From Escherichia phage SelmaRatti, in the sequence record MZ501103: a stretch of DNA of 64,000 nucleotides, one strand, 5' to 3'. The translations under genes were made by a program, and so were the position numbers. The notes beneath the pieces were generated by a model that saw only the letters and a list, made by a program, of their open reading frames with translations, made no database searches and had not been told where the DNA came from. Below are positions 6,115 to 51,758 of the stretch, in pieces (the first letter of the stretch is position 1; the number at the start of each line of letters is the position of its first letter).

Positions 6115-6543
6115 TTAAGCAGTTAAACCTGGGATCATATACCCGAAACGGCGAAGTTTCTGAATCCCCTCATTCACTTCTTCCGGTGAGTAAGACCAAC
6201 CATAACGTTCATTAACCTGAAAACCAGGAGATTCACTAGTTTTATAGTTAACAACTAGGCGATGCTTAGCAGGCATAAACAGCTTATAGTTTAACGCAAA
6301 AACTAAGCCCATTTCGTCTAACTCTTTCCAGCCCACAATCTCTTCAAGACCATCCTCTACCTGCACAATTAAACCAATACAGGGGGCCTCATCAATATCA
6401 TCCTTAAAAGCAAAGGAGATTTCGTTATTCTCACACCATATTTTCAAAGAGTTAATAGCCTCATTATACAGGCTAGCTGGGAGAGTACGCCAAAAGTTAA
6501 CCAAAATTGGGTTAGCTTCTTTAGAGAATACATTATTGAACAT
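6115..6543 (-). CDS. hypothetical protein (142 aa), tandem paralog of 5713-6105
   Basis: ORF; WKELDEMGLVFALNYKLFMP similar to neighbour. Confidence 0.55.
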   Translation of the reverse strand: MFNNVFSKEANPILVNFWRTLPASLYNEAINSLKIWCENNEISFAFKDDIDEAPCIGLIVQVEDGLEEIVGWKELDEMGLVFALNYKLFMPAKHRLVVNYKTSESPGFQVNERYGWSYSPEEVNEGIQKLRRFGYMIPGLTA

Positions 6544-6545
6544 AT

Positions 6546-6995: not shown

Positions 6996-7209
6996 TTTTC
7001 ACCTGTTCTCTAAAGTTTTGCCCAATACTGTCTAACAGCTCAGCTAATTCTTTATTGCCTTTCTCCATTAAGGTATTAGCAATAACTTCTAGCATAGTAG
7101 CGCAGGATTCAACACCATCCTTATAGCCAGTTTCCCAGTGCTGCATTAATGCGTTTTCCAAAGCGGTGTTTAAATCACTGCCTGGTAGCATCGGCTTCGA
7201 GAATGCCAT
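6988..7209 (-). CDS. hypothetical protein (73 aa)
   Basis: ORF. Confidence 0.45.
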   Translation of the reverse strand: MAFSKPMLPGSDLNTALENALMQHWETGYKDGVESCATMLEVIANTLMEKGNKELAELLDSIGQNFREQVKNA

Positions 7210-7381
7210 AAAGTTTCTCCTCTAGTTCCATAACACGATTTTCATAAGAGGCACGCAACTTTTCAATTGCCAGTGCACGCACTGTAACCTCATTAGAATT
7301 AATAGCTAATTGGGCCAGATCTTCTGTTTCCATACGTCCGTTGTAAATTAAGCGATATTTAAGATGTTTTACGTTTTTCAT
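7175..7381 (-). CDS. hypothetical protein (68 aa)
   Basis: ORF. Confidence 0.4.
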   Translation of the reverse strand: MKNVKHLKYRLIYNGRMETEDLAQLAINSNEVTVRALAIEKLRASYENRVMELEEKLYGILEADATRQ

Positions 7382-7773
7382 ACTTTTAGCTCCGCCCCAA
7401 TATCCTCATAGAAGTAATCGTAGTAAACTTGCTTAATATGATGCTTAATAACAGAGGAGAAATCCTCTGTGCCATTAGAGGTAACATTAAATACTTGTAA
7501 GTGGTTCCAATACACAAATTCTAGAGTCTCTTTTAAGTCTTCAGGTTCTTCGTATATAGGATTATAGACAGTAATATCTAATTCTTGCTCTACAAAGTCG
7601 CCTAGTAATGTAGGATACCCAATACCTTCTAGTAATGAGTAATCACCCGTAGCAGCAAAAATAGCTTCCTGAATAGTATCTACCCCTAAGTGATAATGTC
7701 CTAACTTAGATACAACAATAAATGGTTTTAGTTCCATATACCCTCCTCTCAAATTTATAAATCTATTATACAT
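7378..7773 (-). CDS. hypothetical protein (131 aa)
   Basis: ORF. Confidence 0.5.
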   Translation of the reverse strand: MYNRFINLRGGYMELKPFIVVSKLGHYHLGVDTIQEAIFAATGDYSLLEGIGYPTLLGDFVEQELDITVYNPIYEEPEDLKETLEFVYWNHLQVFNVTSNGTEDFSSVIKHHIKQVYYDYFYEDIGAELKV

Positions 7774-7835
7774 ATATTTTTAGCTGAAAGCAAATAAAAT
7801 AAAAGCCAGGTCGACTAGCAACCTGGCTGATTAGC

Positions 7836-9662
7836 TTATTTAAGATTTAAGTGTTTTACTCTACCAAGCACTTCTTTTTGTTTCCCAGAATTGAAAGGCC
7901 TACTGCCCGGGGATCCCAGGTACCCGCAAACCCTACGTGTAACCTCTATTTCTTCAGATCCACAACCCGGACATACAAACCCACGTTCAGAAGCAACAGA
8001 TTCACCCATATATCCGCAGTTGAAACACTCATCAATTGGTATATTAACACCAATATAATGGCTACATTCTAGCCCCTTATCCACCACATACTCAAGAGCT
8101 TTGTGGAACTTTTTCATTTGAGGTAGTTCCACAAATGATATATTACCACCATTAGCTATTTTGGTAAAATGAGCTTCGTACTCAAATTTAGTATCTGGGG
8201 CTACTTTCTCTCTTACGTCCAAATGGTGACTATTAGTAAGATAGCCTTTATCTGTTAACCAAGAATACTCTGGGAACCTACGTTCTAGTAATTTATTAAA
8301 ACGATTACATAGAGACTCACTAGGAGTAGCATACAAGCTAAACCCAAGATTAGTCTCATTAGCTTTAACTTCGCAACGATTTTTTAGGTGAGTGAGAACT
8401 TCCTCTGTAAATTCAATACAATCCCTATGGGTTTGTGGTAGACCAAACATTATTTGGCACATCTCATAGACCCCAATGTATCCAAGAGATACAGAAGATC
8501 TACCCTCAAAAATAGGCCATACATACTCTTCCCCATCTAAACGCACACCAAAACCCCCGTGCATATAAAGAATAGGGGCTTGTTTAGCCTTCACTTTCTT
8601 AAGTCTATTTAAGAAAAAATCATGAGCTTCAAAAGCCTCATCCACATATTTGTCCAGAATATCCCAGAAATCTTCAAAAACCCCATCTGCCTCAGCAGCA
8701 ACCATAGGTAGATTAATAGACACTACACCTAAATTATTGCGCCCTGCAATTTCTCCGGAGGGGATAGCAGATAAAAAGCTACGACAACCCATAGGTGCTT
8801 TAAAATCACCAGTAACAGCTACAACTTTCTCGTAACTTAAATAGTCCGGGTACATACGGGTAGCAGAACACTCAAGTGCTAGCTGTTTTATATCGTAGTT
8901 AGGGTCGCCTGGATTTTTATTTAACCCTTCTTTAACTGAGAATACTAGTTTAGGGAAGATAGGGGTTGACTCAGCAGCACCTAAACCTTTAATACGGTTT
9001 TGGAGGATGGCTTTCTGAATCATCCTTTCCTCCCACCCCTGTCCTAGCCCAAAGCCAAGCGTAACAAAAGGAGTCTGTCCATTAGAGTTAAATAATGAAT
9101 TAGTTTCATACTCTAGGGCTTGGAATGCGTCATAACACTCTTTTTCAGTAAGTTCAGTAGCATATACAGCAGCTTTCCTTTCATCCTTGAGCCAACGTAG
9201 ACCACGACCCAGATGTTTATTGTAAGACTTTCTGACATACGGGGCTAGAACCTCATCGATACGATCAATAGAGGTGCCACCATACTGAGCACCAGATACT
9301 TGGGCAATAATCTGAGCAGTGATTGCACATGCAGTAGTTATGGATTTAGGAGTTTCAATATTTGCATTACCAATTTTAGTACCATTCTTCAGCATGCTAC
9401 CAAGGTCTACTAAGCAACAGTTAGTGTACCCCTGTGCTCTGTAATCCATATCATGAATGTGTATCTTACCTAGATTATGGGCGTCTAACAGGTGTTTAGG
9501 TAACTCTTGCGATACTAAATACTTGTTAACTTCCCCAGCTAATAAGTCTCTTTGAGTATGGAACATCTCACTAGGTTTATTAGCATTATTATGCTGTAAA
9601 TCCTTATCCGCAGTTAGAGTGAGCAGACCTTTGCAATTCTCAATTAATTCATTCTCTGTCAT
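7836..9662 (-). CDS. nrdD: anaerobic ribonucleoside-triphosphate reductase (class III RNR)
   Basis: 608 aa; C-terminal glycyl-radical motif RVCGYLG preceded by Cys-rich zinc ribbon (CFNCGY...CPGCGS). Confidence 0.85.
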   Translation of the reverse strand: MTENELIENCKGLLTLTADKDLQHNNANKPSEMFHTQRDLLAGEVNKYLVSQELPKHLLDAHNLGKIHIHDMDYRAQGYTNCCLVDLGSMLKNGTKIGNANIETPKSITTACAITAQIIAQVSGAQYGGTSIDRIDEVLAPYVRKSYNKHLGRGLRWLKDERKAAVYATELTEKECYDAFQALEYETNSLFNSNGQTPFVTLGFGLGQGWEERMIQKAILQNRIKGLGAAESTPIFPKLVFSVKEGLNKNPGDPNYDIKQLALECSATRMYPDYLSYEKVVAVTGDFKAPMGCRSFLSAIPSGEIAGRNNLGVVSINLPMVAAEADGVFEDFWDILDKYVDEAFEAHDFFLNRLKKVKAKQAPILYMHGGFGVRLDGEEYVWPIFEGRSSVSLGYIGVYEMCQIMFGLPQTHRDCIEFTEEVLTHLKNRCEVKANETNLGFSLYATPSESLCNRFNKLLERRFPEYSWLTDKGYLTNSHHLDVREKVAPDTKFEYEAHFTKIANGGNISFVELPQMKKFHKALEYVVDKGLECSHYIGVNIPIDECFNCGYMGESVASERGFVCPGCGSEEIEVTRRVCGYLGSPGSRPFNSGKQKEVLGRVKHLNLK

Positions 9663-10512
9663 TGATTATTTCCTCGATAAACTTTATAGCTACTTTTGGT
9701 TCAATATTGAAGAATTCCGTAGCACCGTCAAAATCTTTGTACTGGCAATTCTGCTCTTTAAAGTAGTTATGGGCTAATTTTTCTATTAGAACTGCACCAC
9801 TATATTCTCCAATTTCAAATACTTTAATTATTTCCAAATCAGTAAGGTGGCTACTAGACCTAATATGTAGAAGTCTACGCTCTGGATTGTTAGATCTACC
9901 TATTTTAACTCCGTGTGATGGGCTATGCATAACATATATCTTAGTACTTTCTAAATCTCTATAACTACAGTAAGGACAACCATTCCCTCTTAATACAGAT
10001 CCTGGAGTAGCTTCCCACCTATGCCCTGCACCACAAAGAAAGGCGGTCTTAGTATTCGCATTACTATACTCACCCACTATTCTGATATTTCTGGCAGCAA
10101 GACGATCATTTATAGTATTAACACTAAGTTTCTGTTTATTAGCAGCACAAGATGGGCAGCCACTACCTCTATTAATTATACTATTAAGTGTAGTAGCCCA
10201 CTCATGACCACAAACACACCTAAATTTAGTATTTATATCAGCACTATTTTTATAGCCGTTCAACAATGTAATACCTCTGTCCTGTAATATAGTATTAATT
10301 TTATCAATATCTAGTTTACGGCTACTAATAGAGCAAGTATGACACTTGGTCTTTCCATTCCTAATGGCGTCAAATTTAGCTGTCCATTGATGACCGTATT
10401 CGCACTGATACGTATGCCTATACCTAGAATTTTGATATGGCTTATCCACCATAGTAAAACCACGCTCGGCTAGGCATTTATCTACTTCTTCTTGAGTTAA
10501 TTTTTTCGGCAT
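9649..10512 (-). CDS. T5orf172-type endonuclease-like protein with repeated zinc-ribbon modules
   Basis: Three repeats of GHxW...G.GCPxC plus C-terminal IYVMHS...KIGRSNNPERRL (GIY-YIG-like); start moved to Met15 (MPKKLTQEE) by paralog alignment and RBS GGAGA. Confidence 0.6.
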   Translation of the reverse strand: MPKKLTQEEVDKCLAERGFTMVDKPYQNSRYRHTYQCEYGHQWTAKFDAIRNGKTKCHTCSISSRKLDIDKINTILQDRGITLLNGYKNSADINTKFRCVCGHEWATTLNSIINRGSGCPSCAANKQKLSVNTINDRLAARNIRIVGEYSNANTKTAFLCGAGHRWEATPGSVLRGNGCPYCSYRDLESTKIYVMHSPSHGVKIGRSNNPERRLLHIRSSSHLTDLEIIKVFEIGEYSGAVLIEKLAHNYFKEQNCQYKDFDGATEFFNIEPKVAIKFIEEIINDRE

Positions 10513-10569: not shown

Positions 10570-10706
10570 TTAAAATTTTCTTTCGCCATCTAATACTGTA
10601 ATATTTCGCGTATAAATAAATGATTATCTAGTATCATATTTCTACCTTTATAAGCAAGTAAATTTTTTATTTAAAAGCAATATCATAGGTTTATTTAAAA
10701 TTATAC

Positions 10707-10735
10707 TTGCTTTTTGCTGTAAACCTTGTTATAAT
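10707..10735 (+). promoter_or_regulatory. T5-type early promoter (TTGCTT-17-TATAAT)
   Basis: ACTTGCTTTTTGCTGTAAACCTTGTTATAATAT upstream of phoH. Confidence 0.6.
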
Positions 10736-10811
10736 ATATTTGTAAGTTGATAAACAAGATCTCTTTGTTGATCCTCTGTTAGAAGCGAAGTACACTATAG
10801 GAGTGTTATTT

Positions 10812-11564
10812 ATGGGAAAAGCACGTCAAAAAAGAGAGAACCGCAATGGTTCAAGAAAGCGTGGCAACAAATATGAGAATAACGTAATTCAGGCTGATTT
10901 TTCTAATGATTACGCTAACCCAGTTGCTAAATCCCTAGTAGGTAAAAACCGAGAGCAAAAATCATATATCAATATGATCAAGAACAACACAGTGACTGTG
11001 GGTATTGGTGAGCCAGGTACTGGTAAAACCTTTATCCCGTCTGTTCTTGCAGCTCAGGAACTCGTAGACATTCACTCAGATATTGAGCAAGTGATTCTAG
11101 TCCGTCCTAATGAACCTCTAGGTAAGTCTCTTGGTATGCTTCCTGGTGATCTAGCAGAAAAGCTAGAGCCTTGGTTAGAGCCAATAGCTGATGGTATGAA
11201 ATGGGCCATCGGTGATCATGCCTATAATGGGTATGTCGAACGTCAGAAAATTAAATTTTTGGCTGTAGAACATGCTCGTGGCAGAACTTTCAACAACTCC
11301 TATGTAATTGTCGATGAAGCTCAGAATATTTCCGTTGAGGCAATGATTTGTCTCCTAACTCGTGTAGGACAAGACTGCCGTTTAATTATCTGTGGAGATA
11401 TAGCTCAGAAAGACATTAAAGGTGACTCAGGTCTAGCACTCCTTATGGAAGTCTATGAAAAATACGAAAATGCCCCATTCTCAATGATCGAATTGATTGA
11501 TAACGTTCGTTCTGTTGAGTCTAAAGCATTCTATGATATTTTTAAAGACATGGGGAAGGTGTAA
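10812..11564 (+). CDS. phoH: PhoH-like ATPase
   Basis: Walker A GEPGTGKTF; start placed at ATG 10812 after RBS AGGAG rather than the GTG at 10803. Confidence 0.8.
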   Translation: MGKARQKRENRNGSRKRGNKYENNVIQADFSNDYANPVAKSLVGKNREQKSYINMIKNNTVTVGIGEPGTGKTFIPSVLAAQELVDIHSDIEQVILVRPNEPLGKSLGMLPGDLAEKLEPWLEPIADGMKWAIGDHAYNGYVERQKIKFLAVEHARGRTFNNSYVIVDEAQNISVEAMICLLTRVGQDCRLIICGDIAQKDIKGDSGLALLMEVYEKYENAPFSMIELIDNVRSVESKAFYDIFKDMGKV

Positions 11565-11565
11565 T

Positions 11566-11763
11566 ATGGGAGACGTTGTACATCTACACCGAAAAACTAA
11601 AATACATCGTACTTCACTGAGTGCTGCTAATATGATTACACGTAAGGAAGGGGAAGAAAGTCCTAAGACTACCCTAGCGTGGAAAATTGTAACCTCAAAT
11701 CCAAATCGGCCCTTCAATTATAATGAACTAAGTACCTCAATAGATATTCTGCTGAGAACTTAA
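11566..11763 (+). CDS. hypothetical small protein (65 aa)
   Basis: ORF with RBS GGGGAAGGTG; the longer ORF-track version overlaps phoH. Confidence 0.4.
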   Translation: MGDVVHLHRKTKIHRTSLSAANMITRKEGEESPKTTLAWKIVTSNPNRPFNYNELSTSIDILLRT

Positions 11764-11907
11764 GTGGCCAAAAACTAGACTGACAACACAGAAGGCCTGG
11801 GTATGAAAATGCTCGGGCCTTTTCTATCAGAAAATTTTATTTGCCAAATGACTGAGAATAAAGTAAACTATTTCCTAAATCCTGATAACTATAAAAAGGA
11901 AAGCCAA

Positions 11908-25800: not shown

Positions 25801-25872
25801 GCCGTCCTAGTATAATTGGTATTATCAAGCCGTAACTGGTGGAAGATGTAGGTTCGAATCCTACGGTCGGTA
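25801..25872 (+). pseudogene. tRNA-like element, degenerate (no clean anticodon arm)
   Basis: Perfect T-arm GTAGG-TTCGAAT-CCTAC and 6/7 acceptor pairing, but D and anticodon stems do not fold canonically. Confidence 0.35.
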
Positions 25873-26375
25873 AGAACTGGATAACTGATGCTTTTAACGT
25901 AAAAGCTTCCGAGGTTAGTTGCGCACTGCCTAAACCACGCGGTAGTTGGTTCCAGACTAACCAACCAGTCTGCTGAATAGTTTTATTACGATTTAACTAT
26001 GTCCAGGCTAAAGAAGAACTTTAGAAGGTATTTCTAGGGTAGTGAAGTTCTTTCTCCATATCGGAGTAGTTTTTCAGGCTATCCACAAAGTGGGAAATGC
26101 TGACATGAGAGATGTCACTAATGGTGCACAATAGCACAGGTAATTCGCGATAACTCCTGTTGAGTAGCAGCAAAAGGCGGGAAGTCATGACCCCAAGCCT
26201 AACCGAGTCCTCAATATACCGCAGGACATAACCACTAAGTCACCCTGACTTAAACTGGAAAATAATAGACGTTACCGTATTTTGTCTTGAAATACTTAAT
26301 GAGTGAGACTTATGACTCTCCCGGTATCGTCTGTATTTTTAAGAGTTTTTACGAGAGTTCTTAAAAATACTTAAA

Positions 26376-26450
26376 CGGGGTGTAGTCTAAGGGAGAGGCA
26401 GGAGTCTTCTAAATTCCTTTATGCAGGTTCGAATCCTGTCACCTCGGCCA
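26376..26450 (+). tRNA. tRNA-Arg(TCT)
   Basis: Hand-folded cloverleaf: acceptor CGGGGTG/CACCTCG, anticodon loop CTTCTAA, T-loop TTCGAAT, encoded CCA. Confidence 0.65.
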
Positions 26451-26484
26451 ATTTTATTAACTGTAACTAAAACAAAGGAAATAT

Positions 26485-27432
26485 ATGTTTAATACTAAAA
26501 ATATGAAAGAACTAACTTCTGAGCAGAAAGTAATTCGTACTATTAAACGTTGGGGGATTGGTGCTGTAGTTGGTTTAGCAGGTTTAATCCTAGCTTTTAA
26601 TTCATATACTATTGTTTCTGATGGTACGGTTAAAACTCAAACATTCCTGGGTAAAGTAGACCCTAATCCAGTATTACCTGGTTTCCATATTGTAAACCCG
26701 TTTGCATCTTTCGATACTTTCAGTACAAAAGATATTGCTGTAAAATTAGATAAACTTCAGGTTCCTAGTCAGGATAAGTTTAAATCCACTGTTGACCTGA
26801 CTGTTATGTTACAATTTGATGGTTCTAAGGCACCGATCAACCGTATTAATGCAGGTACTCAGGATCAGGCTCTAGATAAGTACGTAACTGAAAAATTACT
26901 GTCCACTATTCGTGAGTTCGGTAAGTCTGTACCTAAAGCACAAGATTTATTTGATGCTAAAATTCAGGCTCAATTGCAAACTGCAATTCAACAGGAAGTT
27001 GAAGAGTATGCACGCCCATATGGTTACACAGTTAAGCAGGTATTCCTTCAGGATATTACTTTGCCACCGGTAATCATGGAACAGGTACAGAATACCAAAG
27101 TTCGTGAAGAACAGGTTAATGCTGCTAAAGCTGAATTAGCTCGTGTTGAACAGGAAGCACAGCAAAAAGTTAAACAAGCAGAAGCAGATCGTGAAGCTCG
27201 CAACAACCAAGCTATCGCTAATGAACGTGACGCAGATGCTAAACTGTACGCAGCTAAGAAAGAAGCTGAAGCTAACGCCGCACTGCAACGTACCATTACT
27301 CCTGAGATGATTCGTTGGAAACAACTGGAAGTTGAGATGATTCGTGCTCAGAAATATCAAGGTGGTGTGCCGCAGACTGTGGTTGGCACTGGTTACGATG
27401 GCCAGATGATTATGGATATGCGTAATAAGTAA
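26485..27432 (+). CDS. SPFH/band-7 (prohibitin/HflKC-like) membrane protein
   Basis: N-terminal TM helix, SPFH-like core, long Ala/Glu/Gln coiled coil. Confidence 0.7.
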   Translation: MFNTKNMKELTSEQKVIRTIKRWGIGAVVGLAGLILAFNSYTIVSDGTVKTQTFLGKVDPNPVLPGFHIVNPFASFDTFSTKDIAVKLDKLQVPSQDKFKSTVDLTVMLQFDGSKAPINRINAGTQDQALDKYVTEKLLSTIREFGKSVPKAQDLFDAKIQAQLQTAIQQEVEEYARPYGYTVKQVFLQDITLPPVIMEQVQNTKVREEQVNAAKAELARVEQEAQQKVKQAEADREARNNQAIANERDADAKLYAAKKEAEANAALQRTITPEMIRWKQLEVEMIRAQKYQGGVPQTVVGTGYDGQMIMDMRNK

Positions 27433-27571
27433 TATCCACGCGTAATATTCGAAGTAAGCCCTGTGTTTCCTGGAGAGCGCAGGCAATTAAATGAATTTAT
27501 ATAAAATTTTGCTTGTTTTTGCGCGTAAAATTTTATATAATATTTACTCAAATTTGGAAGAATACGTTAAC

Positions 27572-27943
27572 ATGAATACTAATAAGAAAGGAAATATAGG
27601 GCTAGGAAGTGCGATTGCTCACTTTACTAGTAAAGGTTTGATTGTTTCACTACCTTTAAATGACAGTCAAGATTACGATCTAATCGTAGATATGGGGGGT
27701 ACTCTAAATAAAGTTCAGGTGAAATATACCTCCCAAAAGGCACCCTCTGGTAGTTATATTCTAGCTATGAGAAGTACAAGTGGCACTTCTAGAGTAGCGT
27801 ATAAGACTCTTAATGAAACTAATATTGATTTAGTGTTTGTGTATACTGATCAGTATCAGTTGTTAATTCCAATTAAGAAATTAACTAATAAAAATCAAAC
27901 TACCCTTACTAAAGAATTAGTACAAGAATTCCGAGTTATATAA
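27572..27943 (+). CDS. hypothetical protein, possible PD-(D/E)xK-like fold (123 aa)
   Basis: Start moved to ATG 27572 downstream of a T5-type promoter; DYDLIVDMGG...KVQVK resembles D-x-D/E-x-K. Confidence 0.4.
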   Translation: MNTNKKGNIGLGSAIAHFTSKGLIVSLPLNDSQDYDLIVDMGGTLNKVQVKYTSQKAPSGSYILAMRSTSGTSRVAYKTLNETNIDLVFVYTDQYQLLIPIKKLTNKNQTTLTKELVQEFRVI

Positions 27944-27945
27944 AA

Positions 27946-28035
27946 GGAAGAATACGTTAAAAGGTAAACGAGCTGATTGCTAATCAGTAGCTCTGAAATA
28001 TAGCCTTGTGGGTTCGATTCCCACTTCTTCCGCCA
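27946..28035 (+). tRNA. tRNA-Ser(GCT), long variable arm
   Basis: Acceptor GGAAGAA/TTCTTCC, D-stem CGTT/AACG, anticodon loop TTGCTAA, T-arm GTGGG-TTCGATT-CCCAC, CCA encoded. Confidence 0.7.
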
Positions 28036-28041
28036 AACATA

Positions 28042-28116
28042 GGGTCGGTAGCTTAAAGTTAAAGCGGTGGCCTCATAAGCTAACGAGTAGGAGTTAGATT
28101 CTCCTCCGACCCACCA
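28042..28116 (+). tRNA. tRNA-Met or Ile2 (CAT)
   Basis: Acceptor GGGTCGG/CCGACCC, anticodon loop CTCATAA, unusual T-loop TTAGATT, CCA encoded. Confidence 0.6.
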
Positions 28117-28291
28117 AATTAAGGAAATAAGATGTATAGACATCCACCTCCGCCAACACGTCGTTCTAGAGAAGTTATCCTCATGGAATTGACTAAAAAC
28201 TTCAAGGCAACTCTTGAAGATAGAGATTTAGGCACAGATGAAGATGTTGATTTCATCTGTAAACTATTAAAAATGAAACTGGAGAAACAAC

Positions 28292-28498
28292 ATGGCTAAT
28301 CCTGAAATTACCGCACAACGTTTCATGCTTAAAGGCATGATTGCTGAGGCAGGTATGACTCAAGAAGTTGTAGATTTTCAAAAGCAATTCCTCAATATTC
28401 TCACTCAAGCCAAAGAGCTAGGAGAGAAAGAACATGGAGCAGCAATTATGGCTATATCTCTTATTAGTCTAGACTTGGCTGAAGAATCAGGAGTTTAA
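28292..28498 (+). CDS. hypothetical protein (68 aa)
   Basis: ORF with RBS GGAGAAA. Confidence 0.45.
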   Translation: MANPEITAQRFMLKGMIAEAGMTQEVVDFQKQFLNILTQAKELGEKEHGAAIMAISLISLDLAEESGV

Positions 28499-28528
28499 CT
28501 CCTCCAAGCAGAAATTTTAAAAATGTAC

Positions 28529-28558
28529 TTGCCTTTTGCTTTAAATTTCTGATATAAT
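28529..28558 (+). promoter_or_regulatory. T5-type early promoter
   Basis: TTGCCT-18-TATAAT then ATAAATTGATGAG. Confidence 0.6.
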
Positions 28559-28587
28559 AGTTATATAAATTGATGAGAGGAATCAGA

Positions 28588-28863
28588 ATGTCAAAACGTG
28601 TTACAGCAACTGGTATTGAAAGTGTAATCTGCAAATCCTGGGAAGACAGGGAAGGTGAGATTGAATGGCTTTATTTCTATGATGTAGAACTTCTACCGGA
28701 AGTTAAAGCTAAATGTATTGAAGCTGGTATGGCTCCTGATGCTACTGCTGATGTTGAGATTATCATGAATAAGCTAGAGGGTCTGGTAATCACTGTTAGT
28801 GATGAGGGCGAAGAAGTCTTCGAACTTCCGTTCTCCTTAACTGTCACTCCTAAGTTCGACTAA
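28588..28863 (+). CDS. hypothetical protein (91 aa)
   Basis: ORF; start at ATG 28588 after RBS GAGG. Confidence 0.5.
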   Translation: MSKRVTATGIESVICKSWEDREGEIEWLYFYDVELLPEVKAKCIEAGMAPDATADVEIIMNKLEGLVITVSDEGEEVFELPFSLTVTPKFD

Positions 28864-28991
28864 CTAATACAGCACTGAGCAAGTTCTTCAAAATTTTACT
28901 TGCTCAGTGCCATAAAACTTGATATAATAGTTATCTAATTTGGAAACATATTTAAAAGTGTTTAAACTAGTATTTGAATACTTTTAAATGT

Positions 28992-29075
28992 GCATCGTTG
29001 GCAGAATGGCTATTGCAGCGGTCTGTAAATCCGTGCCCTTCGGGGTTGGTGGTTCAAATCCATCACGATGCACCA
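28992..29075 (+). tRNA. tRNA-Tyr(GTA), long variable arm
   Basis: Acceptor GCATCGT/ACGATGC, anticodon loop CTGTAAA, variable hairpin GCCCTTCGGGGT, T-arm GGTGG-TTCAAAT-CCATC, CCA. Confidence 0.65.
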
Positions 29076-29434
29076 AATTAAAGGAGCTGCTGATGCATCC
29101 TGAAAACTTCTTTATTTACTGCGAGGATAAGTAGCTGAAACGTAGAATTAACAAAGTCTATCATTATCGTGCTAGTCAACAGCCTTATATATACGCTTTT
29201 GACGGTGATCACATTCCACTAGAACAATTATCCTGTGATTACATGATATTGAAGAACTTTGACGAGACAAAGATCTCAAGCGTTCATAATCGACAGAATC
29301 CATTAACGTGGAAATATAAGAAGAAAAAGAAAGGCATCAAATTCTTAAAAAATGTAGTTGCTTAGTTTCCAAAAGTTCTGTATAATAATTACATAAATTG
29401 AACTGGAGAAGCAACATGACAGAACAAGGTAAAT

Positions 29435-29507
29435 CGACCGTTGGCTGAATTGCTTAGGTGAAGGATTGCAAATCCTTTTTATGTGAGTTCAAATCTCATG
29501 CGGTCGT
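29435..29507 (+). tRNA. tRNA-Cys(GCA)
   Basis: Anticodon arm AAGGA-TTGCAAA-TCCTT, T-arm GTGAG-TTCAAAT-CTCAT, acceptor 6/7 pairs; D-arm irregular. Confidence 0.55.
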
Positions 29508-29517
29508 CTAAATTTTA

Positions 29518-29600
29518 GGGTCGTTAGCCAAGTGGTTTGGCGGCGGATTGTTAATCCGTGTCGAAAGACAACGTAGGTTCGATTCCTGCACCCGCTGCCA
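29518..29600 (+). pseudogene. tRNA-Asn(GTT)-like, aberrant (about 14-nt extra segment, non-pairing acceptor)
   Basis: D-arm GCCA/TGGC and anticodon arm GCGGA-TTGTTAA-TCCGT fold well, but 3-prime ACCCGCT does not pair with 5-prime GGGTCGT. Confidence 0.4.
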
Positions 29601-29620
29601 TCTTAATAGAGGATTTCGAA

Positions 29621-29785
29621 ATGAAAGTATTTCGATTAGTAGTAAGTGATCGACGTTCTAGCAAAGATCGTTCGAAGTATACCTTAGCCCACTATGGTAA
29701 AGATGAAAAAGAAGTAATGGTGGAGTTTGGGATTAATCATCGCTACTTAGAAGTTTACTCTATTAAGGAAGTTTATCCGTATTAA
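29621..29785 (+). CDS. hypothetical small protein (54 aa) between tRNA genes
   Basis: ATG 29621 after RBS AGAGGA; ORF-track start lies inside the upstream tRNA-like element. Confidence 0.4.
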   Translation: MKVFRLVVSDRRSSKDRSKYTLAHYGKDEKEVMVEFGINHRYLEVYSIKEVYPY

Positions 29786-29863
29786 GGGTCGTTAGCTCAA
29801 TTGGTTAGTAGCACTTGCCTTTTAAGCAATAGGTTGAAGGTTCGAGTCCTTCACTACCCACCA
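29786..29863 (+). tRNA. tRNA-Lys(TTT)
   Basis: Acceptor GGGTCGT/ACTACCC (one mismatch), anticodon loop CTTTTAA, T-arm GAAGG-TTCGAGT-CCTTC, CCA. Confidence 0.65.
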
Positions 29864-29870
29864 AATTTTT

Positions 29871-29944
29871 GCTCGGTTAGTTTAATGGGAGAACCCCGTC
29901 TTTACACGGCGGTTGCGATAGTTCGATTCTATCACCGAGTACCA
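29871..29944 (+). tRNA. tRNA-Val(TAC)
   Basis: Acceptor GCTCGGT/ACCGAGT, anticodon loop TTTACAC, T-arm GATAG-TTCGATT-CTATC, CCA. Confidence 0.6.
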
Positions 29945-29969
29945 ATTAACTCAAAATAAGGAATTGCAA

Positions 29970-30329
29970 ATGCAATTATCAAGCAAGATTCAAGGTTATT
30001 TCGGTCATGTGACAATGGAGTTCGCTATCTCTAAAGGTTGGGATTTCGAGCAAGATCTAGCTGAGTTCTACAAAGATATTGATCTGAACGTACCGTATAT
30101 GGGACTTTCTACTGGTCAGGAGATCACAGAAGCCGATGTATTCAAGGCAAGTCAAGGTGAGATAACACCTAGTTTTGCCACTTTTTGGAGTGGCTTCACA
30201 ATTAAAGAAGAAGCTCCAGATGATGATGTATTTATGCAAAGCATGCACTCTGGGAGTTCTGATATGTTATTTGTTAAAGATGTACGACATATCCAAGAAG
30301 TGGTAAAAACGTATTTGCAAAATGCTTAA
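29970..30329 (+). CDS. hypothetical protein (119 aa)
   Basis: ORF; ATG 29970 after RBS TAAGGAA. Confidence 0.5.
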   Translation: MQLSSKIQGYFGHVTMEFAISKGWDFEQDLAEFYKDIDLNVPYMGLSTGQEITEADVFKASQGEITPSFATFWSGFTIKEEAPDDDVFMQSMHSGSSDMLFVKDVRHIQEVVKTYLQNA

Positions 30330-30876
30330 TTTCTTGTTATAATATTTATATAAATTGATGCGAAAATAGCTGCCTAGATACCAGGTGTATGACGTCTACA
30401 CTAGCAGAGCTACCGAAAAAGAGATCCTCAGGATAAACGTCGTAGCAAAATTAGTCTGGTATCCATCAATTTAGTTCACTAAGGTATTAGCTCGACCTAG
30501 GACTGGCTGCCAAAAAGCACGACCCCTACGACTCGGGAGAAGTTCTAGATTAGTCCACTAGATTCAGCGGCAACTGAATAGTGTATCGGGTTTGTGAAGA
30601 GCGGCTATCCTCTACTGGCTAATGTATGAGGTTAGTACGCACACCGAGCTAATAGCCTTAGTAAACTAAAGAATTTGGGCGAATAGTGTCAGCGGGAGCA
30701 CACCAGACTTGCAATCTGGGAGGGAGGGTTCGAGCCACTCTTTGTCCACCAAATTAAAAAGAATGCGCGCGATTGACGGAATAGGTATACGTGTAAGCCT
30801 TAGAAGTTGAATTTTGAGGGTTCGAATCCCATCGAGGCGTAACTGCCTGGTGTGATAGAGGCATCATCTTATTATT

Positions 30877-30967
30877 GGAAGAGCAAATCGAATTGGCGAC
30901 GAAAACCGCTGGGAAAGTGGCTGACTGGTAAAACGGCTTGAGAGTTCAAATCTCTCCTCTTCCGCCA
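30877..30967 (+). tRNA. type-II-length tRNA-like gene, anticodon unresolved (possibly Ser or Leu)
   Basis: Perfect acceptor GGAAGAG/CTCTTCC and T-arm GAGAG-TTCAAAT-CTCTC with CCA; internal arms not resolved by hand. Confidence 0.45.
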
Positions 30968-30979
30968 AACAATTTATAA

Positions 30980-31074
30980 GGTAGGTCAATCCAACGGCTG
31001 GCGATGGACTCCGACTTGAAATCGGTTGATCGTAGTGATACGGTGTAAGGGTTCGATCCCCTTACCTACCTCCA
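30980..31074 (+). tRNA. tRNA-Ser(TGA)-like, long variable arm
   Basis: Acceptor GGTAGGT/ACCTACC, T-arm AAGGG-TTCGATC-CCCTT, anticodon stem-loop CCGA-CTTGAAA-TCGG, CCA. Confidence 0.55.
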
Positions 31075-31440
31075 AATCTTGAAGTATGCCGGAATCGGTA
31101 GACGGGGCTTCCTAAAGGGCGTAAGGGGAACATCCACTCCTCATAAGATACCCGAAAACGAGGCTGAGATAAATGGTCTATCTCGTGAAGGTTCAAGTCC
31201 TTCTGCTTCTTGATACCTCTATGGCTCAAAGTGTAACGGTGCTATTTGATGCTCTTAGTAAGACTTTCCCGACATGCGTTCGGGGGTAAGCTGCTAAGAC
31301 TAGAGTAGAAGAGTTTCGGAGAGCCGCCACAATTGAAAATTCGTACTCGTCTTGAGCTGCGTGCAATAGGAGATAACTTGATTAGTATTCTAGAACATGC
31401 TAATTGAGGAAGGTTTCTCTAACCCTGCGAGTTTTCAATT

Positions 31441-31531
31441 GTGGCTATATCATAATTGGTTAATGATCCTGATTGTGAATCAGGCCTTCCAAGCCTCGCT
31501 GAGTAGGGTTCGATTCCCTCTAGCAGCTCCA
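31441..31531 (+). tRNA. tRNA-His(GTG)-like with unusually long extra arm
   Basis: D-arm TCAT/ATGA, anticodon arm CCTGA-TTGTGAA-TCAGG, T-loop TTCGATT, CCA; 19-nt variable region and one acceptor mismatch. Confidence 0.45.
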
Positions 31532-49282: not shown

Positions 49283-49629
49283 TGATATTTGGTAAAACAA
49301 AAATAACTTCTGCTGGTGACGATTTAATTACTCTTAGTCTCTACTATAAAGATGAAAATGTAGAATTAGAAACATTAGAGTATATTCTAATAACTACTAA
49401 TAAGCCAAAAATAGGAGAGTTATTTGATATAATATCTATAGTCTCTGCTAGGGAAGATATTCCAAGTATAACACCAAAGAATATAGCTCACTTAGCACAA
49501 CAATTAGGAATCCTATGGTATAAAGTAGATCTTCCAGCTAAAGAAAGAACCAAAGGAACCTTTGCAGAAGTTGCAAGAAAACCTAAGCCAGAAAAGAAAG
49601 AAACAGGGGAGCAAGCGTCTGATATATGA
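49282..49629 (+). CDS. hypothetical protein (115 aa)
   Basis: ORF. Confidence 0.5.
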   Translation: MIFGKTKITSAGDDLITLSLYYKDENVELETLEYILITTNKPKIGELFDIISIVSAREDIPSITPKNIAHLAQQLGILWYKVDLPAKERTKGTFAEVARKPKPEKKETGEQASDI

Positions 49630-50339
49630 TTAAAGAAGCTGAAAAATTAAAACGTCTCATCCAGTTAGCGCGTGGTGCTACACAAAAGAGTCTTTCACAG
49701 CTAACTGATGAAGAAAAATATGCAGTAATGTTTTTAGGAGATCATTATCCTGCTAAGTGGGATAAGGGTAAGATCAAATATGATCGTGATGCAAAACAAG
49801 TAGTTTGGTCAGGCTCATATGTAGAGGTGAATAAAGCATTAAAGGCTTTAGATCCTGCAGCAAAAGGTTTCTCTTCTAATGCTATTCATATTCTAATTGA
49901 TGAAGATCTCCCAAGATTTAAGGAAGCATCATTTAAAGAAGCATTAGCTAGCGAAGATCTTATTCCTTTCAAACATGGCAAATATGCACATCTTCCTCCA
50001 CTAGAAAAAGAGAAACCAACTCTAGTTAAAGATGAAGTTTATCGTGGGATTGGCACAATGCTAGCGAGTTTGACTGTAGCTCTCCATAAAGATCTAGAGT
50101 TAACGCCCTTAGAAAATGCTGTGCATTTCATGTGCCATAAATATGAGGATACATTTAAAGAACTATGTAAGTCGCTAGGAATGCCAAGTTACACGATATT
50201 AAACTACGCTCCTGAGTATACTAGAGCAGCTCGCGGAACTATGGATTACGATGATACAGGATCAACTGCTTCCTATTTAGCAACTTATATCTACTTCGCA
50301 TCCTTAGGTATCAAACTCAAATCCAAGAAGGAGGAATAA
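49626..50339 (+). CDS. hypothetical protein (237 aa)
   Basis: ORF. Confidence 0.55.
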   Translation: MIKEAEKLKRLIQLARGATQKSLSQLTDEEKYAVMFLGDHYPAKWDKGKIKYDRDAKQVVWSGSYVEVNKALKALDPAAKGFSSNAIHILIDEDLPRFKEASFKEALASEDLIPFKHGKYAHLPPLEKEKPTLVKDEVYRGIGTMLASLTVALHKDLELTPLENAVHFMCHKYEDTFKELCKSLGMPSYTILNYAPEYTRAARGTMDYDDTGSTASYLATYIYFASLGIKLKSKKEE

Positions 50340-50356
50340 AAGTTAACAAAATTTTC

Positions 50357-50386
50357 TTGACAACTCATTGCGGCACATGTTATAAT
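50357..50386 (+). promoter_or_regulatory. sigma70-type promoter (TTGACA-18-TATAAT)
   Basis: TTCTTGACAACTCATTGCGGCACATGTTATAATAATC; no ORF follows. Confidence 0.65.
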
Positions 50387-50393
50387 AATCTCA

Positions 50394-50560
50394 TAGATTA
50401 ACAACTACTCTAGTTGATTAACTCTAGGGGCGATGATTATTACACGAATGTCTCGTATAGCTTGCGGCTGAGCAACAGCGGTATGACGGCATGAGTACTC
50501 ACGTAATTAATCACGCGCCCCCAGGAGAGACTCTCATGAAATTGGGGGTCTCTTTTTCTT
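50394..50560 (+). ncRNA. candidate small non-coding RNA (about 165 nt) bounded by promoter and terminator
   Basis: Strong promoter at 50357-50386 and terminator hairpin AGAGAC...GTCTCT plus TTTTTCTTT at 50525-50560, with no ORF of 20 codons or more between. Confidence 0.45.
50525..50560 (+). terminator. rho-independent terminator
   Basis: GAGAGACTC-loop-GGGGGTCTCT then TTTTTCTTT. Confidence 0.65.
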
Positions 50561-50639
50561 TATATTATTTAAATATTTAAATATTTTTAATGGCAATATC
50601 TGTGTTCAAGATGATACACCGGTTGCCGCTCATCTGCTA

Positions 50640-51300
50640 GGATGGCACAACACTTTCTAGTAGACTCCTAAGTTTCTAGGAAAACTCTCACTTTCTAGGG
50701 CAGTTTCTCTCCAACGTTACATATCCTAGGCCGGTTTTCCTATACAGGGCGGTTATGGGGAGGGCGGTTATTTCTAGAAGACATTTTTTGAAAACATTTT
50801 TCCAGAAATTACTGTCGGATTTGCACCTTGTGTTTCTAGAAATTTATGGTCGGATTTGCACAATCGCCTAAGTTTTTAGGAACATATAATCTCCTGAAAA
50901 TGGCAGCATTATTTCGGGCCGAAGGCCCATGATTGCCTGAGTTTTTAGGGCCACAGAAATTTTCACTTGTCAAGCTATTTTGCCCCATTTTGCTAATAAA
51001 ATTTTACTTTTTCTGCACCTATCTCAAATTAACCCAAATTATCTCAACTCTTCCCCAAAATCCCCGCAAATCGGGTGCCCCGCACCAAACATGCGCCCCT
51101 CTCACAGTTCCCTCAAATTTCTCTCGCTATCTCACCTTCACTACAAACCTATACAATCACACACCATCTCATCGAAGTCACAAAAATTTCATCGGATTCG
51201 CACAGCTCAACACATGTCGGATTTGCACATACTCTAGCTAATTCCACAGGATTCGAACGCAGTTCGTGATTGCTGGAGTTTTTAGGGAGACAGATTCGTC
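50640..51300. repeat. dispersed short repeat family, about 8 copies of (A/G)GTTT(C/T)TAGG
   Basis: Copies near 50646, 50663, 50684, 50774, 50833, 50871, 50942, 51283. Confidence 0.55.
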
Positions 51301-51415
51301 ACTCTCACGAATTTATAAATTTTTTTCGGGTCGGATTTGCACACTACCAAAAATTGTCGGATTTGCACATACATGCCCGCACGTAACACCCGTGGAGCAT
51401 TGTCGGATTTGCACA
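50814..51415. repeat. iteron-like direct repeats, 7 copies of GTCGGATTTGCACA
   Basis: Copies at 50814, 50849, 51192 (variant TCGGATTCGCACA), 51216, 51330, 51356, 51402, all same orientation. Confidence 0.8.
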
Positions 51416-51420
51416 AAAGC

Positions 51421-51438
51421 GCAGGGCAATTGCCCTGC
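51421..51438. repeat. perfect 18-bp palindrome GCAGGGCAATTGCCCTGC
   Basis: Exact reverse-complement symmetry. Confidence 0.8.
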
Positions 51439-51443
51439 TCGCC

Positions 51444-51615
51444 TGAATGCGAATGATAATGAGAATCAATCTCGTTTAAAAAGCTGAATGCGAATGATAA
51501 TGATTCGCATTTAAGAAAGGGAATGAGAACTATTCAAGAAGTGAAATGATTCTCATTTAAAAAGTGGAGTGATTATCGGTTAGCTAGTGAAATGCGAATG
51601 ATAATGATTCGCATT
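51444..51615. repeat. three copies of AATGCGAATGATAATGA, two forming palindromes AATGCGAAT-N7-ATTCGCATT
   Basis: Copies at 51444, 51485, 51591; related half-sites AATGATTCTCATT at 51543. Confidence 0.75.
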
Positions 51616-51648
51616 TAAAAATGGAAGTGAGAAACACTATTATTTAAG

Positions 51649-51730
51649 TTATCCACAGACTTATCAACAGCACGATTTGACTTGACAGAATCCTAGCCAT
51701 TTTGAGGCGTTATTAACAGACTTATCCACA
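51649..51730 (+). promoter_or_regulatory. cluster of DnaA-box-like 9-mers (TTATCCACA x2, TTATCAACA, TTATTAACA)
   Basis: Exact consensus TTATCCACA at 51649 and 51722; one-mismatch boxes at 51661 and 51710. Confidence 0.6.
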
Positions 51731-51738
51731 GCTTATCC

Positions 51739-51758
51739 TACTGTATAAATATACAGTA
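51739..51758. promoter_or_regulatory. LexA-box-like palindrome TACTGTATAAATATACAGTA
   Basis: CTGT-N8-ACAG with AT-rich spacer, matching the SOS-box consensus. Confidence 0.6.

What the first reader, a model, noticed from the sequence alone, without database searches (positions are those of the whole stretch)
50357..50560. Promoter-to-terminator unit with no ORF: candidate small RNA
Seen in sequence: a near-consensus promoter (TTGACA-18-TATAAT, 50357-50386) is followed about 140 nt later by a hairpin plus T-run terminator (50525-50560), and no reading frame of 20 codons or more lies between. The intervening sequence is GC-richer than its surroundings. Inference: a discrete sRNA of about 165 nt expressed from an early-type promoter next to the iteron field.
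Basis: inference. Interest (0 to 1): 0.6.

Follow-up and report, generated by a model that had tools for sequence, protein, structure and literature searches.

The report
Unannotated structured RNA gene in T5-like phages
Next to the terminal repeat of this T5-like phage lies a conserved, promoter-driven, non-coding, strongly folded RNA gene of about 170 nt whose tip sequence is swapped wholesale between related phages; it is unannotated and its function is unknown.

Summary
A 12/12 sigma-70 promoter with an extended -10 TG lies at 50357-50386. A strong hairpin plus U-run lies at 50523-50561. No conserved ORF lies between them.

The window is a T5-like phage (Demerecviridae). The unit is single-copy. 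It follows the stop codon of the last gene of an early operon and lies about 390 bp outside the left terminal repeat.

A counterpart exists at the same place in most of the ~450 T5-like records searched and in Klebsiella Sugarlandvirus. The promoter hexamers, their spacing, a 5' hairpin and a long-range closing helix are all kept. The apex of the central rod occurs as at least 11 mutually unalignable alleles that still fold. Compensatory changes, a sense-strand folding advantage and the lack of any shared ORF or Shine-Dalgarno motif argue for selection on an RNA. No Rfam family matches, and I found no report of it.

Caveats:
- Expression is untested.
- The terminator is strong only in this allele and absent in Sugarlandvirus.
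- The hairpin also terminates the upstream operon.
- No target or partner was found.

Best reading: a genuine early ncRNA gene that most likely acts through its structure. A cis-acting role at the terminal-repeat boundary is the main rival.

The parts
49626..50339 (+). Last gene of the plus-strand early operon (237 aa, unknown function). Its stop codon lies 17 nt before the -35, with no terminator in between.
   Evidence: ORF; phrog_8993, unknown function; no Pfam match; annotated as a hypothetical protein in HdH2, Bf23 and K38.
50340..50356 (+). A/T-rich stretch (AAGTTAACAAAATTTTC) upstream of the -35. It may act as an UP-like element (inference).
   Evidence: sequence read directly.
50357..50386 (+). 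Sigma-70 promoter: TTGACA, 18-nt spacer with extended -10 TG (50378-50379), TATAAT.
   Evidence: 12/12, with TG; the -35 and the spacing are kept in 21 versions with unrelated spacers; the -10/initial-transcribed signature TATAAT-NN-TYTCATA occurs 10 times in the window against 0.84 expected, which marks the phage's own promoter class.
50393..50393 (+). Predicted transcription start (an A, 7 nt after the -10).
   Evidence: Inferred from promoter geometry; the same position applies in all alleles.
50394..50426 (+). 5' hairpin that also pairs the extreme 5' end (UAGA with UCUA).
   Evidence: minimum-free-energy fold; pairs 13-21 (CG/UA) and 14-20 (AU/UA) covary in the A/B family; other alleles have different stem sequences (AAAACAA/UUGUUUU, ACAAUAA/UUAUUGU, ACAUA/UAUGU, GUUAAU/AUUAAC).
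50427..50521 (+). Central rod. The closing helix is GGGGCG (50427-50432) paired with CGCCCC (50516-50521). The basal stems are UGAUUA/UAAUCA and UUAC/GUAA. The type-specific apex is about 50443-50505.
   Evidence: folds; basal parts are 86-100% identical between alleles and the apex 36-69%; every allele folds as a rod.
50523..50561 (+). 3' hairpin containing the G-run (stem 50523-50536 / 50543-50556, loop 50537-50542) plus the U-run. It is an intrinsic terminator for the RNA and for the upstream operon.
   Evidence: dG -17.1, 7 U in the next 10 nt; the HdH2 record annotates a terminator at the homologous position.
50562..50591 (.). AT-rich spacer with an overlapping palindrome (AAATATTTAAA).
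50592..50651 (.). Nearly invariant 60-nt block found downstream of every Markadamsvirinae allele. Its function is unknown, and it is listed as context because it may not belong to the RNA.
50652..51740 (.). Context: the T5 'Repeat Region 3' / injection-stop region. It holds TTTCTAGR repeats, GTCGGATTTGCAC (7 copies), AGGGCGGTTAT (2 copies) and paired DnaA boxes at 51648-51671 and 51709-51732. The terminal-repeat boundary falls at about 50947/50948 by homology to T5 position 10219.
   Evidence: repeats; annotated terminal repeat and iss; alignment to T5; Davison preprint.

Best explanation
This is a genuine ncRNA gene that is unannotated in every record inspected. It is conserved across T5-like phages (Markadamsvirinae and Sugarlandvirus).

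How it is expressed (inferred): the unit lies in second-step-transfer DNA, so it can only be expressed after the rest of the genome has entered the cell. At that point host sigma-70 RNA polymerase fires a consensus early-type promoter. In this phage it makes an RNA of about 170 nt that is almost entirely base-paired. The RNA has a 5' hairpin that sequesters the 5' end, a ~95-nt rod closed by a long-range helix, and a terminator hairpin.

What the hairpin also does (inferred): it ends the upstream early operon and keeps early transcription out of the injection-stop region and terminal repeat.

How the RNA acts (inferred, not shown): it acts in trans through its shape. The conserved basal stems would serve as a scaffold and the hypervariable apex as a specificity module, recognising a protein or forming a loop-loop contact with another RNA. 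It does not look like a seed-pairing, Hfq-type sRNA. The discrete, freely recombining apex alleles suggest diversifying or frequency-dependent selection, as expected for an anti-defence or phage-phage competition determinant.
For: Promoter:
- It scores 12/12 with TG.
- The -35 and the spacing are conserved across 21 versions with unrelated spacers, including a different genus.
- It carries the phage's own promoter signature.

Selection on an RNA:
- All 10 allele representatives fold with z-scores of -3.0 to -6.4 and share the same three-domain architecture.
- The apex-only segments of 11 alleles have a mean z of -3.4, and 7 of 11 reach p <= 0.003.
- The sense strand is more stable than the antisense strand in 10 of 10 cases.
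- In the T5-type family, 71 pairs are 99.8% paired, against 34-43% in the slid controls. There are 3 compensatory pairs, 3 wobble-compatible pairs and 1 broken pair.
- The 5' hairpin covaries.

Not coding:
- No frame has a Shine-Dalgarno motif and no peptide is shared.
- The conserved ATG is followed directly by TAA in type A2 and is absent in F1-F3.

Not a leader: every annotated gene downstream is on the opposite strand.

Distribution:
- One copy per genome, outside the terminal repeat (places roughly equal records).
- The D core occurs in 141 records, C in 102 and E in 35. The A/B family accounts for about 100 or more of the 447 T5-like records.
- F-type sequences match 57 Klebsiella phage records.

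Modular alleles:
- Basal parts are 86-100% identical between alleles, whereas the apex is 36-50% identical between types.
- The alleles are not linked to the promoter version, the 3' hairpin version or the neighbouring genes.
Against: - No transcript evidence was obtained here or found in the held literature.
- The apex of the window's own allele is not significantly structured on its own (z -0.8). Its overall score comes from the 5' hairpin, the basal stems and the terminator.
- The terminator is not conserved. Other alleles score -4 to -12.6 kcal/mol with interrupted U-runs, and Sugarlandvirus has none. The 3' end, and therefore a discrete RNA, is uncertain in those phages.
- No target was found. 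There is no complementarity above chance within the 64-kb window, no type-specific complementarity within the 13-14 kb loci, and no match to 5,426 E. coli genomes.
- The three compensatory pairs in the T5 family belong to one lineage split. The family alignments hold only 6-13 distinct sequences, so covariation statistics are thin.
- Fixed synteny with the repeat region fits a cis-acting role equally well.
Confidence: 0.5

Rival explanations
1. A cis-acting transcription unit serving the terminal-repeat boundary. Here the function is the act of transcribing from a strong orphan promoter toward Repeat Region 3 and the terminal repeat. It could support concatemer processing or packaging, as with the T7 phiOL/phiOR promoters and the pause at the concatemer junction. 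It could instead provide origin activation or R-loop priming next to the DnaA boxes. On this view the folded RNA is a by-product or a pause/attenuation element.
For: - The unit always sits beside the repeat region and about 390 bp from the repeat boundary, while the upstream gene varies.
- It points into the repeat.
- Most alleles lack an efficient terminator, and Sugarlandvirus has none, so read-through is likely there.
- An AT-rich tract and an invariant 60-nt block follow the unit.
- DnaA boxes and iteron-like repeats lie downstream.
- The T7 precedent is from my own knowledge.
Against: - This phage's allele has a strong terminator (dG -17.1 kcal/mol, 7 of 10 U) before the repeat region.
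- GC skew across the unit is about zero, so the region is not prone to R-loops.
- Davison's preprint places the T5 replication origins near the genome centre.
- This model does not explain why a rod with compensatory changes and a sense-strand folding advantage is maintained.
Confidence: 0.22
2. An operon-end insulator or 3'-UTR stabiliser only. The hairpins exist to terminate and stabilise the upstream early mRNA. The convergent strong promoter blocks antisense read-through coming from the pre-early operon. The RNA itself has no function.
For: - There is no terminator between the stop codon (50339) and the promoter, so the operon must end at the 50523-50561 hairpin.
- The pre-early genes converge from the other side, with their own terminators at 51421-51511 on the minus strand.
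Against: - A stabiliser needs no promoter, yet the -35, the spacing and the start site are conserved across genera.
- An insulator does not need a 95-150 nt rod kept by compensatory changes, nor a 5' hairpin placed at the promoter's own +2.
- T5-type phages already carry a separate hairpin between the T5.018 stop codon and the promoter.
Confidence: 0.13
3. A DNA-level element. The segment would be a palindromic cassette or recombination hot spot, possibly spread by neighbouring homing endonucleases, or a site for a DNA-binding protein. The RNA fold would then merely reflect the DNA inverted repeats.
For: - The alleles are discrete and shuffled independently of their flanks.
- Homing-endonuclease genes abut the promoter in GEC_vB_N5 and K7PH164C4.
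- The closing helix contains CTAG-type motifs like the neighbouring TTTCTAGR repeats.
Against: - The sense strand folds better than the antisense strand in 10 of 10 alleles, and G-U pairs are tolerated or interconverted. A double-stranded DNA palindrome would be symmetric.
- In the A/B alleles the 3' arm of the closing helix has no CTAG.
- The conserved promoter would be unexplained.
Confidence: 0.08
4. It encodes a small protein, for example the 26- or 29-codon frames, or the CDSs called there in some GenBank records.
For: - Frames of 26 and 29 codons exist.
- Gene callers have placed CDSs across the unit in K38, GEC_vB_N5, SEL21 and Roth49.
Against: - No frame has a Shine-Dalgarno motif.
- The peptides differ completely between alleles.
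- The conserved ATG near the 3' end is followed by TAA in type A2 and is missing in F1-F3.
- The 'MIIT' frame varies from 12 to 43 codons.
Confidence: 0.02

Closest known systems
3'-UTR-embedded sRNA genes with their own promoter (enterobacterial 'type I' 3'-UTR sRNAs such as DapZ or MicL; from my own knowledge)
   Same: The promoter sits immediately after (or at the end of) the last gene of an operon. The sRNA shares the operon's intrinsic terminator. The RNA is short and non-coding.
   Different: Those sRNAs carry a conserved single-stranded seed and act through Hfq. This RNA is almost fully paired and has no conserved unpaired stretch. No target complementarity was found. Its central part is replaced wholesale between close relatives.
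phi29 pRNA (packaging RNA; Rfam RF00044)
   Same: Features from my own knowledge of phi29:
- The RNA is about 170 nt.
- It is made from a strong early promoter near a genome end.
- Sequence is very divergent among relatives while secondary structure is conserved.
- It acts through its shape and through loop-loop contacts.
   Different: No match to any Rfam model, even at E <= 10. T5-like phages package with a conventional terminase. Interlocking loops and a three-way junction were not identified. The resemblance is in anatomy only.
Orphan promoters flanking the T7 terminal repeat (phiOL/phiOR) and the concatemer-junction pause site
   Same: A strong promoter with no gene to serve lies next to a direct terminal repeat and points into it.
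   Different: The T7 promoters use the phage polymerase and act in cis on DNA processing and replication. Here the promoter uses host sigma-70, a conserved RNA fold is present, and in this phage a strong terminator precedes the repeat.
Lambda oop RNA, and plasmid copy-control or immunity RNAs (ColE1 RNA I/II, P4 CI, P1/P7 c4)
   Same: These are short promoter-to-terminator RNAs next to iteron or origin-like DNA. In the plasmid and P1/P7 cases, loop sequence variants define specificity groups, which is reminiscent of the discrete apex alleles seen here.
   Different: No antisense partner or cognate target was found nearby. The phage is virulent and has no immunity circuit. Davison's preprint places the T5 origins elsewhere on the genome.
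T5 Repeat Region 3 / injection stop signal (Heusterspreute 1987; Wang 2005; Davison preprint 10.1101/866236)
   Same: It is immediately adjacent.
   Different: The described region ends at T5 position 10409. The unit lies at about 10645-10844, which is not covered by that description and carries no annotated feature in NC_005859 or AY692264.

Membership tests
Sigma-70 promoter of the T5 strong (early) class | -35 and -10 hexamers at 17 +/- 1 nt, with an extended -10 TG | tested here: met
   TTGACA-18-TATAAT, 12/12, with TG. The -35 and the spacing are conserved in 21 versions.
Sigma-70 promoter of the T5 strong (early) class | Phage-specific discriminator / initial-transcribed signature shared with other promoters of the genome | tested here: met
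   TATAAT-NN-TYTCATA occurs at 10 sites against 0.84 expected. Klimuk et al. (PMC7472727) report ATATT in the discriminator of early promoters. Here it is AATCT, which is similar but not identical.
Sigma-70 promoter of the T5 strong (early) class | Activity and timing in vivo | not testable with these tools
   Early timing is inferred only from the unit's location outside the first-step-transfer DNA.
Intrinsic (Rho-independent) terminator | Stable G+C-containing hairpin followed directly by a U-run | tested here: met
   In the window: dG -17.1 kcal/mol, with 7 U in the next 10 nt.
Intrinsic (Rho-independent) terminator | Feature kept in homologous units of relatives | tested here: not met
   Other alleles score -4 to -12.6 kcal/mol with interrupted U-runs. 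Sugarlandvirus versions have a 5-bp hairpin with only 2 U in the next 10 nt.
Any described RNA family (Rfam 15, including 6S RNA and phi29 pRNA) | Covariance-model score at or above the family's gathering threshold | tested here: not met
   Only tRNAs were found in the window. At E <= 10, 50200-51100 gave nothing but chance-level hits. Ten loci covering all alleles gave no hits.
tRNA / tmRNA | Cloverleaf detected by ARAGORN | tested here: not met
   No call at 50357-50560.
Seed-pairing, Hfq-type trans-acting sRNA | Terminator hairpin with a U-tail | tested here: met
   (type A only).
Seed-pairing, Hfq-type trans-acting sRNA | Conserved single-stranded seed with complementary targets | tested here: not met
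   The RNA is nearly fully paired. The conserved 5' nucleotides belong to the promoter-class signature and are themselves paired. No complementarity above chance was found in the window, no type-specific complementarity in the flanking loci, and no match to E. coli genomes. Short seeds of 6-8 nt were not assessed.
Seed-pairing, Hfq-type trans-acting sRNA | Hfq or ProQ binding | not testable with these tools
   This requires CLIP or pull-down experiments.
3'-UTR-derived sRNA with its own promoter | Lies downstream of the last CDS of an operon and shares its terminator | tested here: met
   The stop codon is at 50337-50339, the -35 at 50357, and there is no intervening terminator.
R-loop / primer RNA at an origin (ColE1 RNA II, T4 oriF/oriG type) | G-rich transcript over a C-rich template, next to an unwinding element at a mapped origin | tested here: not met
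   GC skew is about 0 across the unit, and only one G5 run is present. An AT-rich tract is present. Davison's preprint places the T5 origins near the genome centre.
Small-protein gene | Conserved ORF with a ribosome-binding site | tested here: not met
   with sequence comparisons.

The most novel reading that the evidence does not exclude
The locus is an RNA-based specificity determinant unique to T5-like phages. It would be a scaffold RNA whose hypervariable apex is under diversifying selection. Two mechanisms fit. It might neutralise or evade a variable host defence component. Alternatively, it might work at the genome end: it is the first promoter to enter with second-step-transfer DNA and lies about 390 bp from the terminase cut that defines the terminal repeat. 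In that case it could be a pRNA-like or T7-CJ-like cofactor for second-step transfer, repeat duplication or packaging. Either way, an untranslated RNA would become a player in the long-unsolved two-step injection and terminal-repeat biology of T5.
Probability: 0.2. Interest if true: 0.8.

Novelty: new member of a known kind. Interest (0 to 1): 0.58.

Why it matters
T5 is a classical model phage. Its promoters are used widely in biotechnology. Its two-step DNA injection, its temporal class switching with unmodified host sigma-70 polymerase, and the formation of its 10-kb terminal repeats all remain mechanistically open.

A conserved, strongly promoted, structured RNA has gone unannotated at the border between first-step and second-step DNA. 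It gives a concrete, easily mutable candidate to test in each of these processes.

The allele pattern is also unusual for a phage sRNA: a conserved scaffold with a freely exchanged, unalignable apex. It would be a tractable case of modular RNA evolution, or of an RNA-level arms race.

On the practical side, several hundred GenBank genomes could gain an ncRNA feature. Several of them could also lose spurious CDS calls placed across this unit.

Tried and rejected
1. Known RNA family. I ran Rfam at gathering thresholds on the whole window, in E-value mode on 50200-51100, and at gathering thresholds on ten loci covering all alleles. I also ran ARAGORN. Nothing matched.

2. Mini-ORF from the conserved CUCAUGAAAUGGGGG motif (MKLG.../MKWG...). 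Rejected: type A2 reads ATG TAA, and F1-F3 have no ATG.

3. Conserved 5' end as an sRNA seed. Rejected: the sequence is the phage-wide promoter/initial-transcribed signature, and it is base-paired.

4. Antisense target in cis or nearby. The k-mer complement search of the 64-kb window gave chance-level hits. In the 13-14 kb loci, own-type and cross-type apex complementarity were indistinguishable.

5. Energy-based duplex scan. It exceeded the time limit and was dropped.

6. Mimicry of, or antisense to, a host sequence. blastn against 5,426 E. coli genomes at E <= 10 found no match.

7. Partner gene by linkage. The RNA allele is not linked to the upstream gene, to the promoter version, or to the adjacent 3 kb of pre-early genes.

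8. Column-wise covariation across all alleles. Abandoned because the closing helix is re-registered between types, and MAFFT misaligns the A and A2 apices. I used per-allele folding statistics and within-family counts instead.

9. Riboswitch-like terminator/antiterminator switch. The closing helix and the terminator coexist in the minimum-free-energy fold, so nothing forces an alternative structure.

10. Literature. Eight full-text searches and four papers mention no RNA, promoter or terminator at this position. Davison 2015 (PMC4743489) is not held in the library.

Full report
**Context.** The 2-kb stretch around the finding matches 447 phage records at 80-93% identity, all of them T5-like (Demerecviridae). 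The best matches are Kenya-K38, HdH2 and BF23. The window's plus strand corresponds to the minus strand of records that start at the left end.

Annotated relatives show the layout in window orientation:
- a plus-strand early operon ending at 50339;
- the unit;
- about 390 bp of repeats;
- the left terminal repeat, whose pre-early genes all lie on the opposite strand.

In T5 (NC_005859) the repeat is 1-10219, the injection stop signal (iss) is 9140-10149, and the next gene, T5.018, is at 10936-11820. Homology to T5 position 10219 puts the repeat boundary at about window 50947/50948. The unit therefore lies in unique, second-step-transfer DNA. Consistent with this, it is single-copy in records that carry both repeats (places roughly equal records).

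It contains TTTCTAGR repeats, seven GTCGGATTTGCAC copies and paired DnaA boxes at 51648-51671 and 51709-51732. That description ends at T5 position 10409. The T5 counterpart of the unit, at about 10645-10844 on the complement strand, has no annotated feature.

**Observation.** A perfect promoter alone is only mildly improbable: about 0.1 per window by my own rough composition-based estimate, which is not a tool result.

Mechanical ORF listing does find a 26-codon TTG frame between promoter and terminator, and a 29-codon ATG frame running through the terminator. GC content is 0.43 against 0.33-0.39 in the flanks.

**The promoter is real.** I collected the homologous position from GenBank, IMG/VR and metagenome loci. 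There are 21 promoter versions whose spacers are unrelated in sequence. The -35 is still TTGACA in 16, TTGACG in 3, TTGAAA in 1 and TTGCAT in 1, always 17-18 nt from the -10. The search pattern fixed the -10 and TG, so only the -35 and the spacing are independent evidence.

The sequence from the -10 into the transcript (TATAAT-NN-TYTCATA) occurs 10 times in the window against 0.84 expected. One of those sites lies just upstream of the tRNA cluster. This is the phage's own strong-promoter class. It also means the conserved first nucleotides of the RNA should not be read as an sRNA seed.

**The transcribed part is a structured RNA family with exchangeable cores.** Every locus has a unit at this position, but the cores fall into discrete types:
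- A (this window, BF23, HdH2, K38);
- A2;
- B;
- B';
- C;
- D (T5 itself);
- E;
- F1-F4 in Klebsiella Sugarlandvirus.

Core-specific searches find D in 141 records, C in 102 and E in 35. The A/B family query matched 206 records, 97 of them over at least 80% of its length. The F-type unit query matched 57 Klebsiella phage records.

Between types, the 5' part and the basal stems are 86-100% identical, whereas the apex is 36-50% identical after alignment, which makes it effectively unalignable.

All ten representatives nevertheless fold into the same three domains: a 5' hairpin that includes the 5' end, a long-range closing helix around a rod, and a 3' hairpin containing a G-run. Their z-scores against dinucleotide shuffles run from -3.0 to -6.4, and the window's is -6.2. 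The apical, type-specific segments alone have a mean z of -3.4, all eleven are negative, and seven reach p <= 0.003. The window's own apex is weak at z -0.8.

The sense strand is always more stable than the antisense strand, by 2.5-13 kcal/mol in 10 of 10 cases. A double-stranded DNA palindrome would not behave this way.

Within the T5-type family the consensus structure has 71 pairs. It is 99.8% paired, against 34-43% when the partners are slid. It shows three compensatory pairs, three wobble-compatible changes and a single break. These changes come from one lineage split, so the statistics are thin.

The 5' hairpin covaries within the A/B family and has entirely different stem sequences in other types. 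A and A2 differ at about 20 apex positions, yet both remain rods, and this includes a G-C to C-G exchange.

**Not coding, not a leader, not a known family.**
- No frame has a Shine-Dalgarno motif and no peptide is shared.
- The ATG inside the conserved 3' motif is followed by TAA in A2 and is absent in F1-F3.
- All annotated downstream genes are on the other strand.
- Rfam has no match for any allele, and ARAGORN makes no call here.
- Neighbouring proteins have unknown function.
- Eight literature searches and four papers mention nothing at this position.

**What limits the sRNA reading.**
- The promoter starts 17 nt after the upstream stop codon with no terminator in between. The hairpin is therefore also the operon terminator, and HdH2 annotates it as a terminator.
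- Only type A has a strong intrinsic terminator. Other Markadamsvirinae alleles have hairpins of -4 to -12.6 kcal/mol with interrupted U-runs. The Sugarlandvirus version tested (F1) has a 5-bp hairpin followed by an A-rich tail.
- The RNA has almost no conserved single-stranded sequence.
- I found no complementary target in the window, none in the 13-14 kb flanks of five alleles when compared with cross-type controls, and no match to E. coli genomes.
- The alleles are not linked to the promoter version, the 3' hairpin version (K34 combines an A core with a B-type 3' end) or the adjacent pre-early genes. Linkage therefore reveals no partner gene.
- Homing-endonuclease genes abut the promoter in two relatives, which could drive this shuffling.

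**Mechanism.** What is shown:
- a conserved promoter;
- a conserved fold on the sense strand;
- no coding capacity;
- a fixed position just outside the terminal repeat;
- modular alleles.

What is inferred: after second-step transfer, host polymerase makes an abundant, 5'-protected, almost fully paired RNA of about 170 nt. Its hairpin also insulates the repeat region from early transcription. The RNA most likely acts in trans through its structure, with a basal scaffold and a variable apex that sets specificity. I put this at about 0.5.

The main rival, at about 0.22, is a cis-acting role for transcription toward the repeat boundary, either packaging and processing as at the T7 concatemer junction or origin activation. 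Fixed synteny and the weak terminators of other alleles favour this. This allele's strong terminator, the near-zero GC skew, the reported central origins and the maintained rod all count against it.

The remaining readings are less likely: a pure insulator or 3'-UTR stabiliser (about 0.13), a DNA-level cassette (about 0.08) and a small protein (about 0.02).

**Verdict.** This is a new RNA family of a known general kind (a phage-encoded small RNA) with an unusual cassette-like apex, found in most of the T5-like records searched and unannotated in those inspected. Its function is unresolved, and the decisive tests are straightforward.

Noticed in passing
window 50592-50651: The 60-nt block GGCAATATCTGTGTTCAAGATGATACACCGGTTGCCGCTCATCTGCTAGGATGGCACAAC is almost invariant in every Markadamsvirinae locus, whichever RNA allele precedes it. 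It is the most conserved non-coding element of the region and its function is unknown. It is not present in the Sugarlandvirus loci.
   Followed up: partly
L063 342-698 (GEC_vB_N5); L070 1-280 (K7PH164C4): Homing-endonuclease genes (a GIY-YIG nuclease and a 'homing endonuclease') sit directly upstream of the unit's promoter in some relatives. They may drive the allele shuffling seen at this locus.
   Followed up: no
L003 3937-4056 (K38_017); L063 662-1012; L061 706-959; L066 381-563: Several GenBank records call short 'hypothetical protein' CDSs across the non-coding unit. They are not conserved between alleles and look spurious.
   Followed up: partly
window 1034, 2042, 21712, 25718, 29381, 36260, 36983, 45032, 50381, 62140: The promoter-class signature TATAAT-NN-TYTCATA occurs at 10 sites against 0.84 expected. 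The site at 25718 (+) lies just upstream of the tRNA cluster. The site at 2042 (-) reads TATAATAGATTCATA, which from memory resembles the classical PN25 'T5 promoter'.
   Followed up: partly
window 25801-31531: This is a tRNA cluster. Rfam lists 11 tRNAs and ARAGORN lists 10. The calls at 25801-25872 and 29518-29594 come only from Rfam. The call at 30980-31074 (Ser-tga) comes only from ARAGORN.
   Followed up: no
window 50975-51200: There is a strong C-over-G skew (about -0.6) in the first ~250 bp inside the terminal repeat. The tracts are C-rich, for example CCCCAAAATCCCCGCAAATCGGGTGCCCCGCACC.
   Followed up: no
window 51443-51633: A cluster of AATGCGAATGATAATGATTCGCATT palindromes and 67-nt direct repeats lies between the GTCGGATTTGCAC repeats and the paired DnaA boxes (51648-51671, 51709-51732). 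It corresponds to the IRD'-spacer-IRC' / DRE area that Davison describes for T5.
   Followed up: partly
L004 2905-2935 (T5, minus strand) and all type-D loci: T5-type phages carry an extra strong hairpin (TCTCGGTGCACAATACCTGTACCGAGA) between the T5.018 stop codon and the unit's promoter, with no U-run after it. The window's type A lacks it.
   Followed up: no
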